This document shows, piece after piece, positions 1 through 64,000 of a stretch of 64,000 bases of DNA. The DNA comes from Haliotis rubra. Lineage: Eukaryota. Every line of letters begins with the position of its first letter. The stretch's first letter is position 1. Location: contig NW_025767606.1 of the NCBI RefSeq assembly GCF_003918875.1, forward strand, positions 124,001-188,000, written 5' to 3'. Position numbers: made by a program.

Positions 1-3000
1 AGTTCCGTATTTTTTATACTTACGTGTTTTGCCAACCATTTATGAAGTATATCAAGCTTAAATACTGTCAAAGCTCAGGGTTTTGTTGAAACGTGTCAAC
101 ATTTCACGTTGTCTTGTTTTCAATGTGTTACAGTGGTGAAACTTTCTGTACATTTTTCTAACTCACGGACTGAGAAAACAAAACATTTTGGGATGACAGG
201 TAATTATAATTTTCAGAATCAATCATGGCGTTCATGTGTCTAGATCTAAAATGAAGGGGGTACACTCACTTTCAACATCAATAATGTTGATGAGAAACCC
301 CACTGCATTCCAGAAAGAATCAGAGATAAACTCTATGTACATGCTGTTGCTGCTGCTGAGGAAACTGCTCGGGGTCGCCCTTCTGCCGCAAAATGTGAAC
401 ATGGATCCATTTGATTTGTCTGGCCCTGGTGACAAAAATATCACAAACATTTTGACGACAGACGTCAGACACGTTTTCATGTTATTGCAGTTATTGATGA
501 ATTAATTTAATTAATTTTAACAATAGATAAAGACAATATACTGAAACATAACAATCCTTTATTATACACAAGAAAATCTAAAGCGCCCAATTCTCATAGT
601 TACAAGGTGGGTAAACACTTGGGCCTGAATTAGGACCATGACAATCCTTCCCACACGTAAGGGTCTAGTGCTCACAATTGGGAACAATGAGATAACGGAC
701 AACGACTATTGCTCATATTATGAACCTCTTGTTTCTTGGTATATGGGGAACTTGAAAGACTGCACCTGTATGTACTAAACCTATAGACACTGAGAATGGT
801 ATGGTTTGGGGCAAAATTGCACAGTGACTCTAGGAAATTATCTAAATTATCCCTCCTTGGACATAAAGTTATTGTTAAATGATGAACTATTTGGAAAGTA
901 AGTGTAAACATAAAGTGACTACATATATCAAACTTCTGAAGAACAAACATTACTTTTCAAAACATCAACCTAATCCTGTTGGATAGGAGCAAGTCTTCAA
1001 AGATCGCAATATGTATAGTATCATAAAGAAATATTGTGCAAATGTTTAATCTTACTTATGTTAAATAATTTAGAACATATAAGTAAACCATAATCTACCC
1101 ATTGGTGGAGGTGGAGAAATATTCCTTATGACCGAAAGAAAAAAACACATTTTGTAATTGGAAGGATCTGACGCAAGAGAAGAATTCCATTGTCCATCTT
1201 TAGAAATTATACACATATTTTACTGCAATCGATTCGATATATGTAAAACTAATTCACATTTCAATAATCCACGATGAGGTAACATTGAGAATTTTTTGTG
1301 TAAAAGTCATTGTTACCCTTGATAATATGTGTACATATCATGAAGGCTCGACGAGGATGTTTTATATATAGCCTACATCTATATGTATAGGTATTATGTT
1401 GTTTCGTACAACTCATGTAGGTGGTAGGGGCCTGAATGAAAATAACAATGCTATTCAGTTGGCATCGCAAGGGCTCAGGTTGAAACCATGTGTACTCTTG
1501 ACCAAAAAATTCAAATGATATACGTACCATTATAGAAGGACAGACTGTCATATGTGCAATTTTTGGACGAATGCAAGGAAAAGTATGCAATGTGAATGCC
1601 AACTCGACGATCTGGTGTCAATGTGTGTATCTTCCATCCGCATGTTAAGTTACTAGAATAAACGGTATTAAATCAATATTAACAATGTTTCCATAGTACC
1701 AAATCATGAAGAGCATTATGATTACAAAAATGACAGTCTAGATAAATAATAATTATGACTCAACATCATTGATCGATGTGAGTCATGTTACATCCCCGAA
1801 TACAGGGGTGTATATTCTTTCTCAACTATGGCATCAATGGAAGCATATGAATATACGTACGTTCATATACGTATGAATGTACCTAATTTCATCCAGCCAG
1901 CCTNNNNNNNNNNNNNNNNNNNNNNNNNNNNNNNNNNNNNNNNNNNNNNNNNNNNNNNNNNNNNNNNNNNNNNNNNNNNNNNNNNNNNNNNNNNNNNNNN
2001 NNNNNNNNNNNNNNNNNNNNNNNNNNNNNNNNNNNNNNNNNNNNNNNNNNNNNNNNNNNNNNNNNNNNNNNNNNNNNNNNNNNNNNNNNNNNNNNNNNNN
2101 NNNNNNNNNNNNNNNNNNNNNNNNNNNNNNNNNNNNNNNNNNNNNGTCTTCTTAATATACGTGGTTTAGTAAATACTTGCATCAACTGTGATAACACCAT
2201 AGATACCCGATAAATAATCACGCATTAACATATATATTTGCTCAAGAGAAAATATTCAAATAAGTTCATCATAAATCAAATATTATTTCTTGAAAAAGTA
2301 TTCATAGGCAACATTTTCATGATAAAATGGTTATAAGCTAAAGCAATGTGGCAAGATCCTTTACATAGTCAATTAAAAACTGATGCCTCGGCCCTCGTAT
2401 CTTGAGCATACCATGGCTCTACATAAGAATTTTCTAAGCACATGGTCTTATGTAATTGATCGTTCTGAAGTAAGCGTCCATTCTCACATTGCACTAGTGA
2501 GAAAACAAACATTTGATGCTTACGCGCCATAAGGTTTTGGATATCCTGGCGATGTTATGTTTACTGTGTCCCCGGTAAGTGTGATTTCCTGGAAACATCT
2601 GTCTGGAAAGATAATCAATGACACACACACATACATGAATTTGAAATTGTGTTTCGAAAAGAAAAAGGATGATATTATAGGAACCGTACAATTGACTCTT
2701 TTATGGCTTTTAGCAGTTGTTTGTTTAGATAGCGTCTGTATGTAACTATAGTTAGTTACCGTACAGTTAAAATCAAGTTCCTAGTCAGATATGTTTTTAT
2801 TCTAAATAAGTAATGTTGACCAGGTGGATAAAAATATACTATAAGTCATAATTTCAAATATCTAACAAATTGAATGCATCCTTCTCAACAGTCGATATGT
2901 CTATTGTTCAATCACGGATTTAACCCTCTAGGCTGGTTAATCACTGTCAGACTGAGGTGTCGTTTTAAACTGCACGTATTGTCAGCATCACGCCCCCACC

Positions 3001-61800: not shown

Positions 61801-64000
61801 AGCCAGAGCAGTAAATTCACGTACACAAGCTGGTTAGTATGATCTGAAATTTCATTCTTGTTTACTCATGCAGTAAGTATCTCAAATATACAACTTATAT
61901 GGCGTATATGGCCATCCGTAGTTTTTATGGTTTACCATGTCCCTGGAACCAGTAAGAGAGCGAGCGGGCTAACAATAAAAGTAAAAACCATAAAATAATG
62001 ATTAATAATAATTGTTTTACTGATTTCATTTTATTTTCAGCTTAATTAATAATCTGGTAATAGTATTCAAATTCGGAACCAATTTTAAGTGTCAGAGTAT
62101 ATTAACACCACATGAGGACATGCATTTCCACAGCGGCGGGACAGAGTAGATATGGAAACTTTATGACGAATTCGAAATGCCGAATACAGAAAGAAAATAT
62201 ACAGATAACGTAAGATCAACACAAACTTGTAGTGGCACGTAGCTCTCGACCAGGGCCCTGTTTCACAAAGTGATCTTAGCCCTACGACTGCCGTAACTCA
62301 ATGTTAAGGTATAGGAGCTACGATAGTCGTAACGCTATGATCGCTTTGTGAAACGGGGCCCAGAGTTTGATATGTGAGTGATACAGCACAGTGTCGAGTA
62401 TCATTGATATCATGTGATAGCGGGTCACAGATAGTCATGTGACTCATTGACGCTAAGGTTTAGACTTCATAGGTTTCACAATAACAGGACATTCATTTAG
62501 TTTGATACATTACTGAGCGGTGTACCTACAGACAAAGTGGACTACGTATTAGGGTGACAGAAATATGAAGATATGGGGGGGTTTGTTCAGCAGTTGTATG
62601 TTTGATGTTGGTGTCAAGAACAGGTAGGTTTTGTTTTGTACTCAGCCCTGTATTACTGTTACAATGTGGGCGGTGAGGTAGGCCAGTGGCTAAAGCGTTC
62701 TCTCGTTAGGACCCGGGTTAATTCCCCAAGAGATATAATGTTAGACGTCTAGTTGTAGCGTCCGCTGCCTTGACATTGCTAATTGTCTACCTGAAAGCTG
62801 CCTAAAACCATACTCCCCATCTCAGTCATATGAAGACACACGACACCCATAGATGTAGTATTGTCACCATTTACCAAAACTACTTTCAATTTGTAATGTT
62901 AGACAAAATATATCTACTTTTCTGGTCACAGGTGATACGTATACGAAATAACTTGAACTGAATATGGAATGTGAGGTTATTATAAATAGAACGTAGTTGT
63001 TATTCCTACGTAAAATATCCCTCACAATTAAGACCTTCAAGTAAGTTTCACTACTTGGAAGGCTGTATAAAACTCTTTCCGTAGTTCCACACATATTCAC
63101 GTGTGAGAACCCTTGTCATGATTTTGCTTTCTGCGGTTTCTCGATGTAAGAAAATAAATCACTTCTGTGTTTATTATAGTTAAATTGTCAAGGTAACAAT
63201 TATTGTAGCTCACATGTTTTATGATAATGCTTGCAAGTTCATTATATGCACAGAAATCTCATTTCATATTACTGACGTTATAATTCCGAGCTTTCGGAGA
63301 TGTGATGATCAAGTATAGTTACGCTGAATGCTGAGATTTCGCTTCGTCATCCTAGAGTTGTTTCAATTCTATTCACAGATTCCTGTAATGTGGAAATCGT
63401 TTCATCGAGAACACCGACTAATGTCACTTCTCCTGGGTATCCTTTTATGGCCTACCCGAAGTAAGACACCAAGTGCAGTGAGACTATGACTTATGGAACC
63501 AGCAGATTTGACAACGAATGCCCCAAAACGTGTCATATTTATTTTATCAATGTCATCGGGGTAAACGATGATGGGCCAGCTGTTAACGATGGTGCAATTC
63601 GCTCCACAGTATTTCGTACCTTAGTCAATTCAGGATCTGCTAATCGCTCGCTCGTATCTGAGACTCGTATTGATTGTTACCTTTGATTTACCAACACAAT
63701 GTCCATATTAAGTTGATACGCAGTGTTTCGACTACACGCTTTTCAAAACAGCAAAATAGGTAGCTAGGTTCACTGGTTGTTCAGTAATACTTTCATGTAG
63801 CTCAGAGGAATTGGAATGATTGGCAGGACTTAAGAGACAGGCTTCAAACACGGCTATATATCCTGAAGTATATAATTATGCATGCATACATTGCACATAA
63901 CATAAACATGTTGGACACAGTTGTGCTTGTGTGAATATTGCTAATGTGTGTATGTTTTTGCAGTAATCTCCACTGCTGGTGGAGGATTGATGCCAGTGAT

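What the first reader, a model, noticed from the sequence alone, without database searches (positions are those of the whole stretch)
270..64000. Expanding cluster of CUB-only single-pass receptors with PPxY tails
Seen: four paralogs arranged as two tandem pairs in divergent orientation (B,A on -; C,D on +). In the two complete genes the ectodomain is only CUB domains (3 vs 6), followed by an AIVGGxxGxV small-residue TM start and a Pro/Thr/Gln-rich tail with PPAY (A) or PPAY+PPPY (C). No catalytic domain is present. Known: PPxY binds WW domains of NEDD4-family E3 ligases and YAP, and CUB domains bind protein ligands. Inference: a lineage-specific, fast-diverging receptor family coupling extracellular recognition (immune, gamete or endocytic) to ubiquitin-ligase recruitment.
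[Added by the scan's program, not by the reader: the finding's places include an assembly gap (unread letters, written N; its length is only estimated) at 1904 to 2145, 6147 to 6304, 37259 to 37391. Whether the letters on both sides are continuous or in frame is not known: test that first.]
Basis: partly seen in the sequence, partly recalled or inferred. Interest (0 to 1): 0.66.

Follow-up and report, generated by a model that had tools for sequence, protein, structure and literature searches.

The report
Abalone CUB-only membrane receptor gene cluster
This abalone (Haliotis) window holds four neighbouring genes for membrane proteins whose outer part is only CUB domains and whose short inner tail carries a PPxY motif; the family is real but uncharacterised, and two of the four copies have a one-base reading-frame problem.

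Summary
The observation largely holds. The window is Haliotis DNA. Gene B matches the H. rubra protein P0001 and gene C matches P0159 at about 100% per exon. Four CUB-only genes sit as two tandem pairs, head to head: B and A on the minus strand, C and D on the plus strand.

- **Gene A:** an intact 11-exon, 494-codon gene with a signal peptide, 3 CUB domains, a TM starting AIVGGTIGGV and a 70-residue tail with PPAY. No identical protein was found in the database.
- **Gene C:** 20 exons and 6 CUB domains. A one-base shortage inside the TM exon puts PPAY and PPPY out of frame. The public model P0159 therefore ends tail-less at ...FSLAY.
- **Genes B and D:** only 5' pieces lie in the window. D's ATG is out of frame with its signal-peptide core.
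- **Gaps:** all three N gaps lie in introns or intergenic DNA.

The family is a large Haliotis expansion. Of 54 related Haliotis proteins, 47 have a C-terminal TM and 19 have PPxY in the tail. No catalytic, EGF, LDLa or SRCR domain is present, so the automatic names (cubilin-like, BMP1-like, DMBT1-like) mislead.

WW/NEDD4 recruitment is a reasonable inference, by analogy with LRAD3 and LRP10. It is untested, and the Tyr is lost in 2 of 9 A/B-type tails. Interest is moderate.

The parts
9056..31534 (-). Gene A, complete: signal peptide + 3 CUB + TM + 70-aa tail with PPAY (494 codons). Exons: 31534-31465; 27362-27281; 25163-25027; 17058-16909; 16611-16524; 15580-15453; 14779-14621; 12832-12754; 12446-12325; 11944-11774; 9354-9056 (includes the stop).
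   Evidence: tblastn of P0001/P0004. Splice and frame check: all GT-AG, no internal stop. Pfam CUB on the ORFs. No identical database protein; the best match to the tail is 91%.
9056..9354 (-). Gene A last exon: stalk, TM (AIVGGTIGGVFLLLLIISVFGICIY), basic stop-transfer (KHGQR), and a Pro/Thr/Gln-rich tail with PPAY at about 9142-9131.
17765..22311 (+). DIRS-like retroelement (zf-CCCH gag-like ORF, RVT_1, RNase H-like, tyrosine recombinase) inserted antisense in A's 8-kb intron 3. It is not part of the gene product.
   Evidence: Pfam hits. A perfect 338-bp tandem repeat at 17765-18102 / 18107-18444.
270..3894 (-). Gene B, 5' part only (signal peptide + CUB1). Exons: 3894-3825; 2602-2524; 1652-1528; 425-270. 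The gene then leaves the window. It corresponds to H. rubra P0001 (862 aa; 6 CUB + TM + PPAY tail).
   Evidence: Identical to P0001 over the exon-internal residues, 96-100% per HSP for exons 2-4. GT-AG sites confirmed. The gap at 1904-2145 is in intron 2.
35847..54746 (+). Gene C: signal peptide + 6 CUB + TM exon, 20 exons. Exons: 35847-35904; 36833-36914; 37438-37562; 38222-38371; 38780-38855; 40135-40274; 43520-43657; 43880-43961; 45194-45318; 45625-45780; 46258-46339; 46997-47121; 47448-47597; 48670-48754; 48974-49089; 49632-49784; 50070-50148; 51687-51811; 53789-53947; 54449-54537 (stop as assembled).
   Evidence: tblastn of P0005 and P0159. Splice candidates. Boundaries agree with the P0159 sequence. 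The gap at 37259-37391 is in intron 2.
54517..54518 (+). Frameshift inside C's TM coding region: two bases where the orthologue has one codon. The upstream frame stops at TAG 54535-54537.
54504..54746 (+). Out-of-frame ORF holding the rest of C's TM (..IFLGILATA), RKRNR, and the tail with PPAY (54651) and PPPY (54678). It is 87% identical to the tail of H. asinina P0005.
62565..64000 (+). Gene D, 5' part only, a C-type paralogue. Exon 1 is about 62565-62623, with the ATG out of frame with the signal-peptide core at the G7 run 62575-62581. Exon 2 is 63379-63460. Exon 3 runs from 63964 to the end of the window.
5104..5175 (+). Isolated C-type CUB2 first-exon relic (83% to P0005 residues 140-163), lying between A and B on the opposite strand.
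1904..2145 (.). Assembly gap, in B's intron 2.
6147..6304 (.). Assembly gap, intergenic between A's stop (9056) and B's start (3894).
37259..37391 (.). Assembly gap, in C's intron 2.

Best explanation
**What it is**
The locus is part of a tandem cluster of Haliotis genes for type I single-pass membrane proteins. Each has a signal peptide and an ectodomain made only of CUB domains. Each CUB is encoded by three exons and flanked by phase-1 introns. A TM helix follows, opening with a glycine-rich AIVGGxxGG motif. The tail is short, basic at its start, and Pro/Thr/Gln-rich.

Gene A looks like a duplicate of a 6-CUB gene that kept the signal-peptide exon and CUB4-6 and lost the nine exons of CUB1-3 without breaking the frame.

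**How it most likely works (inferred)**
The CUB array binds extracellular protein ligands. Six of the ten complete CUB domains in the window keep the three acidic positions typical of Ca2+-binding CUBs. The cytoplasmic PPxY then docks WW domains of NEDD4-family ligases, so that the receptor, or a protein it holds in cis, is ubiquitinated and sorted to endosomes. This is what is described for LRAD3 and proposed for LRP10.

**Shown versus inferred**
- Shown: gene structures, domain content, topology signals, motif presence and motif conservation.
- Inferred: ligand binding, WW binding, and any physiological role.
For: - **Architecture:**
- **Topology:** N-terminal hydrophobic signal peptides, and basic residues right after the TM (YKHGQR in A, RKRNR in C).
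- **Motif conservation, A/B type:** PPxY at one aligned column in 7 of 9 A/B-type tails from three species, with the x residue varying A/T/S.
- **Motif conservation, C type:** the first PPxY is present in 3 of 3 C-type tails (C, P0005, P0029) and the second in 2 of 3.
- **Recurrence elsewhere:** other Haliotis CUB-TM subfamilies carry PPPSY...PPPY or DPPPSY tails. A Gigantopelta relative (P0203) has 5 such motifs.
- **CUB-only content:** 11 of 11 PPxY-tailed representatives that were scanned matched only CUB-type Pfam models at or above each model's gathering score. Sub-threshold matches to other families did occur (IL12p40_C, Lysyl_oxidase, WBP-1).
- **Chance:** two PPxY in C's tail, P = 0.002 by shuffling.
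- **Precedent, from passages read:** the LRAD3 tail has two PPxY motifs and activates Itch and Nedd4. LRP10 (CUB + LDLa ectodomain) has a Pro-rich tail with one PPxY (PMC11315911, PMC5331069).
- **Ca2+-CUB features, from passages read:** PMC6372009.
- **Conserved cysteines in A:** all conserved CUB cysteines are kept in A's three domains, read.
Against: - No binding or expression data exist for any of these genes.
- One PPxY in A's tail is only marginally unlikely by chance (P = 0.06).
- The Tyr is lost in 2 of 9 A/B-type tails (P0156, P0160).
- 28 of 47 TM-bearing Haliotis relatives have no PPxY, and many have tails of only 10-50 aa.
- C as assembled, and as publicly modelled, has no tail.
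- A has no annotated protein in the database, so its expression is unknown. Its ectodomain is only 61-93% identical per exon to the nearest paralogue.
- Between orthologues the tail is no better conserved than the CUB domains: 84% against 79-86%. It is less conserved at greater distance: 54-61% against 62-77%.
- The acidic-triad scoring was done by eye on motif positions, not by structural superposition.
Confidence: 0.5

Rival explanations
1. These are membrane-anchored, or shed, CUB scaffold proteins of an epithelium such as digestive, renal-like or mantle tissue. The TM only tethers the CUB array. The tail has no signalling role, and PPxY is a by-product of Pro/Tyr-rich composition.
For: - Most Haliotis relatives have short tails without PPxY (28 of 47).
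- The Tyr is lost in 2 of 9 A/B-type tails.
- C's public model is tail-less.
- The tail is not better conserved than the ectodomain.
- The nearest solved relative is cubilin CUB5-8, an endocytic ligand-binding array.
Against: - The motif is positionally conserved across three species while its x residue varies.
- It recurs, often doubled, in separate subfamilies and in Gigantopelta.
- Two motifs in C's tail have P = 0.002 by shuffling.
Confidence: 0.2
2. They are auxiliary subunits that cluster or gate other membrane proteins such as ion channels or receptors, as the CUB-TM proteins NETO, SOL-1 and LEV-10 do. The PPxY motif would tune trafficking of the complex.
For: - NETO2 is among the solved relatives of the CUB domains (7f56_E, E = 3.8e-18).
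- The single-pass CUB architecture is shared.
- The conserved GGxxGG-type motif at the TM start, seen in 35 of 54 Haliotis relatives, could mediate helix-helix contacts. This last point is inference.
Against: - No LDLa domain is present.
- Six CUB domains and large lineage-specific copy numbers are unlike the small conserved NETO, SOL-1 or LEV-10 families. That comparison is recalled, not tested.
- No partner is known.
Confidence: 0.12
3. Part of the cluster is decaying. C (frameshift in the TM exon), D (start codon out of frame) and perhaps A (unannotated, divergent ectodomain, 4.5-kb retroelement in an intron) are pseudogenes or on the way to becoming so. Only B-type copies would be functional.
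For: - Frameshifts in C and D.
- No database protein for A.
- A's first CUB has lost two of the three acidic positions and the YD..DG motif.
- A stray exon relic at 5104-5175 shows past gene decay in the cluster.
Against: - Apart from one base each, C (19 other exons) and D have open exons with canonical splice sites.
- C's out-of-frame tail is still 87% identical to the H. asinina tail, so any break is very recent or an assembly error. D's shift lies at a G7 run, a typical site of indel error.
- A has 11 clean exons, no internal stop, and all structural cysteines.
Confidence: 0.25
4. The PPxY tail signals through non-ligase WW proteins, such as Yorkie/YAP, Kibra or dystrophin-type WW domains, and not through NEDD4-type ligases.
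For: PPxY is a general class I WW ligand. This is established knowledge and was not tested here.
Against: - Nothing in the sequences favours these partners.
- The single-pass PPxY proteins in the passages read (LRAD3, LRP10) point to HECT ligases.
Confidence: 0.08

Closest known systems
LRP3 / LRP10 / LRP12 (vertebrate CUB + LDLa single-pass receptors)
   Same: Type I single-pass membrane protein with CUB domains outside and a Pro-rich cytoplasmic domain. For LRP10 a PPxY motif has been suggested to engage NEDD4-like ligases (PMC11315911 passages; PMC5331069 passages).
   Different: Those proteins have 2 CUB domains interleaved with LDLa repeats. No LDLa domain is found here, there are 3 or 6 CUB domains, and the tails show no detectable sequence similarity (searches found only Haliotis).
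LRAD3
   Same: A short single-pass receptor whose tail has two PPxY motifs that bind and activate Itch and Nedd4 (passages in PMC5331069 and PMC11315911). C-type tails also carry two.
   Different: Its ectodomain is LDLa only, with no CUB domain.
Cubilin (the name given by automatic annotation)
   Same: Tandem Ca2+-type CUB domains. The best solved match is cubilin CUB5-8, 3kq4_B, E = 5e-58.
   Different: Cubilin has 8 EGF + 27 CUB domains and no TM, and is anchored through amnionless (PMC5368703 passage; PMC6283879 abstract as listed). Here there are 3-6 CUB domains, an own TM and a tail, and no EGF domain.
BMP1/tolloid and DMBT1 (other automatic names)
   Same: They contain CUB domains.
   Different: No astacin protease, EGF, SRCR or ZP domain is present in P0001, P0029 or the window ORFs.
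CDCP1; NETO, SOL-1 and LEV-10
   Same: Single-pass membrane proteins with CUB-type ectodomains. Weak overlapping hits to the CDCP1_CUB_6 model, E about 1e-7 to 1e-11.
   Different: The CDCP1-specific models score far below the general CUB model and cover the same residues. NETO and LEV-10 have LDLa. From recall, none of them is known for PPxY tails.
PY-motif transmembrane adaptors (NDFIP, WBP1/VOPP1, Shisa)
   Same: A short Pro-rich cytoplasmic region with PPxY next to a TM. One relative (P0095) gives a sub-threshold WBP-1 hit (E = 4e-4, 21.3 bits against a cut-off of 28.1). The atlas look-alikes of A's tail include a Shisa5-type cluster at score 0.78, which is a lead only.
   Different: The ectodomains are unrelated. 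The window tails give no Pfam hit. The functional description of these adaptors is recalled, not read here.

Membership tests
CUB domain (Pfam PF00431) | Match to the CUB profile above the gathering score | tested here: met
   19 window ORFs gave a CUB hit at E <= 0.05, and 13 of them reach the 21.4-bit cut-off. Three more half-domain exons were found by local HMM. P0001 scored 410 bits over 6 stretches.
Ca2+-binding subset of CUB domains | Three conserved acidic residues plus a Tyr at the Ca2+ site (PMC6372009 passages) | tested here: inconclusive
   Read by eye from the alignments. All three acidic positions are present in 6 of 10 complete CUB domains (A-CUBc; C-CUB1, 3, 4, 5, 6). They are incomplete in A-CUBa, A-CUBb, B-CUB1 and C-CUB2. 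No structural superposition was done.
Cubilin | EGF repeats followed by 27 CUB domains, with no transmembrane segment | tested here: not met
   No EGF domain was found. There are 3 or 6 CUB domains and a C-terminal TM.
BMP1/tolloid | Astacin metalloprotease domain | tested here: not met
   No Astacin hit in P0001-P0004 or in the 343 window ORFs scanned.
DMBT1 | SRCR domains and a ZP domain | tested here: not met
   Only CUB-type models were found in P0029 and P0137, both named DMBT1-like.
LRP3/10/12 | LDL-receptor class A repeats between the CUB domains | tested here: not met
   No LDLa hit.
LRP3/10/12 | Single-pass TM and a Pro-rich tail with PPxY | tested here: met
CDCP1 | CDCP1-specific CUB-like domains scoring better than generic CUB | tested here: not met
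   CDCP1_CUB_6 scored 31-42 bits with 0 independent stretches, against 372-410 bits for generic CUB on the same proteins.
WW-domain ligands, class I (PPxY) | A PPxY motif in a cytoplasmic, accessible segment | tested here: met
   A: PPAY, 45 residues after the TM. C-type: PPAY and PPPY. Cytoplasmic location is inferred from the signal peptide, the single TM and the basic residues after the TM.
WW-domain ligands, class I (PPxY) | Physical binding to a WW domain | not testable with these tools
WBP1/VOPP1 (PF11669) | Profile match above the gathering score | tested here: not met
   The ORF at 9059-9460 matched 0 families. Only P0095 gave 21.3 bits, below the 28.1-bit cut-off.

The most novel reading that the evidence does not exclude
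Abalone and related vetigastropods have built a large, locally duplicating repertoire of CUB-only type I receptors. A subset of them use PY-motif tails to hand bound ligands or cis-partners to NEDD4-type ligases. This would be an invertebrate recognition-to-ubiquitin system, convergent with LRAD3 and LRP10.

The cluster diversifies in two ways. The first is in-frame loss of whole CUB modules, as in A going from 6 to 3. The second is tail removal. If C's one-base shift is real, it turns a signalling TM receptor into a tail-less protein ending in a 19-residue hydrophobic segment that could even serve as a GPI-anchor signal.
Probability: 0.15. Interest if true: 0.6.

Novelty: new variant of a known kind. 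Interest (0 to 1): 0.35.

Why it matters
If the tails do recruit WW-domain ligases, this would be a lineage-specific receptor family that couples a variable CUB recognition array to ubiquitin-dependent sorting. It would give a handle on how molluscs, which lack adaptive immunity and rely on expanded receptor families, take up or down-regulate extracellular ligands.

There are also practical points.
- The automatic names in public abalone annotations (cubilin-like, BMP1-like, DMBT1-like) are misleading for these genes.
- One intact family member (A) appears to be unannotated.
- Two members carry one-base frame problems that should be checked before any expression or selection study.

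Tried and rejected
- **Six-frame chunk scan.** It was replaced by stop-to-stop ORFs and local HMMs.
- **Full-length profile search.** Searching the alignment A1 against 1.84 billion representatives was dominated by giant cubilin-type proteins. 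Only 11 of the 150 listed had the CUB + TM + PPxY layout. As a result, the taxa of P0044, P0068, P0091, P0095, P0110 and P0138 remain unknown.
- **Atlas look-alikes of A's tail.** Best score 0.82, below the level at which hits mean anything.
- **ARAGORN.** It found no tRNA in the SINE-like repeats.
- **Self-BLASTN.** It found no long nucleotide similarity between paralogues apart from the A and B 5' regions (71% over 446 bp). The duplications are therefore not very recent, and dN/dS within the window is not possible.
- **Literature.** The search 'CUB domain' + PPxY + transmembrane found 4 papers, none on molluscs. Haliotis + 'CUB domain' found 7 and abalone + cubilin found 11; none treats this family. 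PMC5368703 only reports many 'cubilin' and 'DMBT1' isoforms in H. discus hannai. 'CUB domain' + 'gene family expansion' + gastropod found 2 papers; neither title or abstract start, as listed, concerns this family, and neither was read further. Supplementary tables of PMC5368703, which list isoforms, could not be seen.
- **Not attempted.** Searches were exon by exon or used the public Haliotis proteins. No complex prediction was run, because no WW-domain partner sequence was available. No structure prediction was run, because the tail is expected to be disordered and the CUB fold is not in doubt.
- **Not searched.** The prokaryotic genome collection is irrelevant here.
- **Human sequence.** The window is abalone, not human.

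Full report
**What the window is.** The window is AT-rich eukaryotic DNA (GC 0.33-0.45) with three N runs at 1904-2145, 6147-6304 and 37259-37391. It is abalone DNA, not human. The four exons of gene B are identical over their exon-internal residues to the Haliotis rubra protein P0001 ('bone morphogenetic protein 1-like', 862 aa). The exons of gene C match H. rubra P0159 ('cubilin-like', 764 aa) at about 100%. According to the search tables, both proteins lie on the same 428,429-bp contig as P0002, P0003 and P0029.

**Checking the observation.** I scanned all 343 stop-to-stop ORFs of at least 55 aa with Pfam. I then searched all 2436 ORFs of at least 18 aa with two small HMMs built from the window's own CUB half-domains. 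I also mapped full-length Haliotis relatives onto the window with tblastn. Every CUB domain is split over three exons. The first intron inside a domain is phase 2, the second is phase 1, and the domains are flanked by phase-1 introns.

On the minus strand:
- Gene A runs from its ATG at 31534 to the stop at 9056.
- Gene B runs from its ATG at 3894 to 270 and then leaves the window.

On the plus strand:
- Gene C runs from its ATG at 35847 to 54537, or to 54746 in the tail frame.
- Gene D runs from about 62565 to the end of the window.

A and C are head to head, 4.3 kb apart. So the arrangement of two divergent tandem pairs is real.

**Gene A.** A has eleven exons, all with GT-AG borders, a consistent frame, no internal stop, and 494 codons. 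The signal-peptide exon is 21/23 identical to B's. It splices in phase directly to an exon homologous to the first exon of CUB4 of the 6-CUB proteins (P0001 residues 395-420).

A is therefore a signal peptide, three CUB domains (the counterparts of CUB4-6), a TM and a tail. No CUB1-3-like exons lie anywhere on that strand. Because the modules are flanked by phase-1 introns, losing nine exons keeps the frame.

The last exon encodes ..DTDVGAIVGGTIGGVFLLLLIISVFGICIYKHGQR.., followed by a 70-residue tail that is 13% Pro, 14% Thr and 9% Gln and contains PPAY. Intron 3 is 8 kb long and holds a DIRS-like retroelement in antisense.

A search with this exon among proteins of 173-2000 aa gave four Haliotis hits at 74-91% identity and none identical. 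A therefore seems to have no annotated protein. Whether it is expressed is unknown.

**Gene C.** C has twenty exons. The boundaries I derived reproduce the P0159 sequence, and their lengths sum to 2295 nt, which is 764 codons plus stop. There are six CUB domains.

The TM exon (from 54449) reads ..DLDPVNIPAIVGGSVGSVCFISFSLAY and then TAG. The remainder of the TM (IFLGILATA), the RKRNR stop-transfer and the tail with PPAY and PPPY are all present. They lie in another frame, in ORF 54504-54743.

Against the H. asinina orthologue P0005 (832 aa, intact), the two alignment pieces abut with two bases (54517-54518) where one codon is expected. The public H. rubra model ends tail-less at the same stop. 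If P0159 was modelled on the same assembly as this window, which the tools do not state, it is not independent evidence for the shift. I cannot tell an assembly indel from a real mutation.

**Genes B and D.** B contributes its signal peptide and CUB1 only (4 exons, GT-AG). Its full product is P0001: 6 CUB domains, a TM and a PPAY tail.

D contributes three exons that resemble C's first three. Its ATG (62565) is one base out of frame with the signal-peptide core, at a run of seven G. This is again either an indel error or a real lesion. P0029 (760 aa, same contig, C-type tail with two PPPY, model starting inside a CUB) may be D's downstream part. I could not show this.

**The gaps.** All three gaps are outside coding sequence. 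Gap 1 is in B's intron 2, and gap 3 is in C's intron 2. In both cases the flanking exons cover consecutive residues of the reference proteins. Gap 2 is intergenic.

**The family.** A profile of four full-length Haliotis proteins (A1) found 17,173 proteins at E <= 0.001 among 1.84 billion representatives. The top of that list was mostly giant cubilin-like proteins.

Of the 150 listed representatives, 11 combine CUB domains, a C-terminal TM and a PPxY-bearing tail. All 11 matched only CUB-type Pfam models at or above each model's gathering score. Sub-threshold matches to other families were listed.

The named search listed 120 proteins, of which 54 are Haliotis: rubra 23, asinina 17, rufescens 11, cracherodii 3. 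Of these 54, 47 have a C-terminal hydrophobic segment, 19 have PPxY in the tail, and 35 have a GGxxG-type motif at the TM start.

Tails fall into several unrelated types: the A/B type, the C type, a PPPSY..DDPPPY type, a DPPPSY type, and several short types without PPxY. Outside Haliotis, a Gigantopelta aegis protein has the same layout with five PPxY-like motifs. Patella, Batillaria and Lingula hits showed no TM in the models.

The PPxY tail is thus a recurrent but not universal feature of a large vetigastropod CUB-TM expansion.

**Conservation.** In nine A/B-type tails, PPxY sits in one aligned column in seven (x = A, T or S). It is PPTN or PPTD in the other two. The four H. rubra copies are 84-91% identical in this exon, against 77-83% to H. 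asinina P0004. This suggests local duplication or homogenisation.

Between the orthologues P0001 and P0004, the tail (84%) is about as conserved as the CUB domains (79-86%). Against more distant paralogues it is less conserved. A differs: its tail is 91% identical to B's, but its CUB exons are only 61-93% identical to the nearest relative. This could mean fast ectodomain change, relaxed constraint, or 3' gene conversion. The data here cannot separate these.

'Fast-diverging' is therefore not established.

**Mechanism.** The parts shown are the signal peptide, the CUB array, the single TM with basic residues after it, and the Pro-rich tail with a class I WW ligand motif.

The parts inferred are:
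1. The CUB domains bind protein ligands. Six of ten complete domains keep the three acidic positions described for Ca2+-binding CUBs (PMC6372009 passages). I judged these positions by eye.
2. The tail recruits NEDD4-type HECT ligases.

The nearest precedents I could read are LRAD3, whose two PPxY motifs activate Itch and Nedd4, and LRP10, which has a CUB + LDLa ectodomain and a Pro-rich tail with one PPxY whose role is still open (PMC11315911 and PMC5331069, passages).

The window proteins are not members of those families, because they have no LDLa domain. They are also not cubilin (no EGF, own TM), not BMP1 (no astacin domain) and not DMBT1 (no SRCR or ZP domain), despite their database names.

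**What was left out.** Searches were exon by exon or used public Haliotis proteins. No complex prediction was sent, because no WW-domain partner was available.

**Verdict.** This is a real, mostly correctly read gene cluster of an uncharacterised, lineage-expanded CUB-only receptor family.
- The domain counts, orientation, TM motif and A's PPAY are confirmed.
- C's tail is out of frame.
- The ubiquitin-ligase link is a sensible but untested hypothesis.
- Interest is moderate.

Noticed in passing
17765-22311 (+): DIRS-like retroelement with a gag-like ORF containing a CCCH finger, RVT_1, an RNase H-like part and a tyrosine recombinase. It is inserted antisense in A's intron 3. Its ORFs are split over several frames, and its 5' part has a perfect 338-bp tandem duplication (17765-18102 / 18107-18444).
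   Followed up: partly
5104-5175 (+): Lone relic of a C-type CUB2 first exon (83% to P0005 residues 140-163), between genes A and B on the opposite strand. No other C-type exon lies nearby, which points to past rearrangement or decay in the cluster.
   Followed up: partly
62565-62623 (+): Gene D's start codon is one base out of frame with its signal-peptide core, at a run of seven G (62575-62581). This is either a homopolymer assembly error or a real 5' lesion.
   Followed up: partly
56.3-58.2 kb, both strands: Fragments of non-LTR retrotransposon(s) between C and D: zf-CCHC at 57292-57645 (+), an RVT_1 piece at 57478-57765 (-), and an RNase H piece at 57708-58127 (+). In addition, 32686-33110 is an 85% inverted copy of 56322-56743.
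   Followed up: no
e.g. 14969-15214, 24394-24636, 37951-38196, 39863-40105, 43238-43486, 45889-46155, 48377-48596, 51858-52128: A repeat of about 240-260 bp, 73-90% identical between copies, occurs at more than ten places in the introns of A and C in both orientations. Its translation happens to contain PPPY, which is unrelated to the gene tails. A second repeat of about 350 bp lies at 27487-27823 (-), 36446-36804 (+) and 42624-42981 (+). ARAGORN calls no tRNA in them.
   Followed up: partly
3493-3927 vs 31140-31565 (-): The 5' regions of B and A (first exon and flanks) are 71% identical over 446 bp. This is the only long nucleotide-level trace of the A/B duplication in the window.
   Followed up: no
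TM starts at about 9340 (-) and 54478 (+): The AIVGGxxGG glycine-rich motif at the start of the TM helix is shared by many otherwise different Haliotis CUB-TM subfamilies and by a Gigantopelta relative (35 of 54 Haliotis relatives). It may be a helix-helix packing motif, which was not tested.
   Followed up: partly
14779 / 14776 (-): A's exon 7 has tandem acceptors (cagtag), so two products differing by one residue are possible.
   Followed up: no
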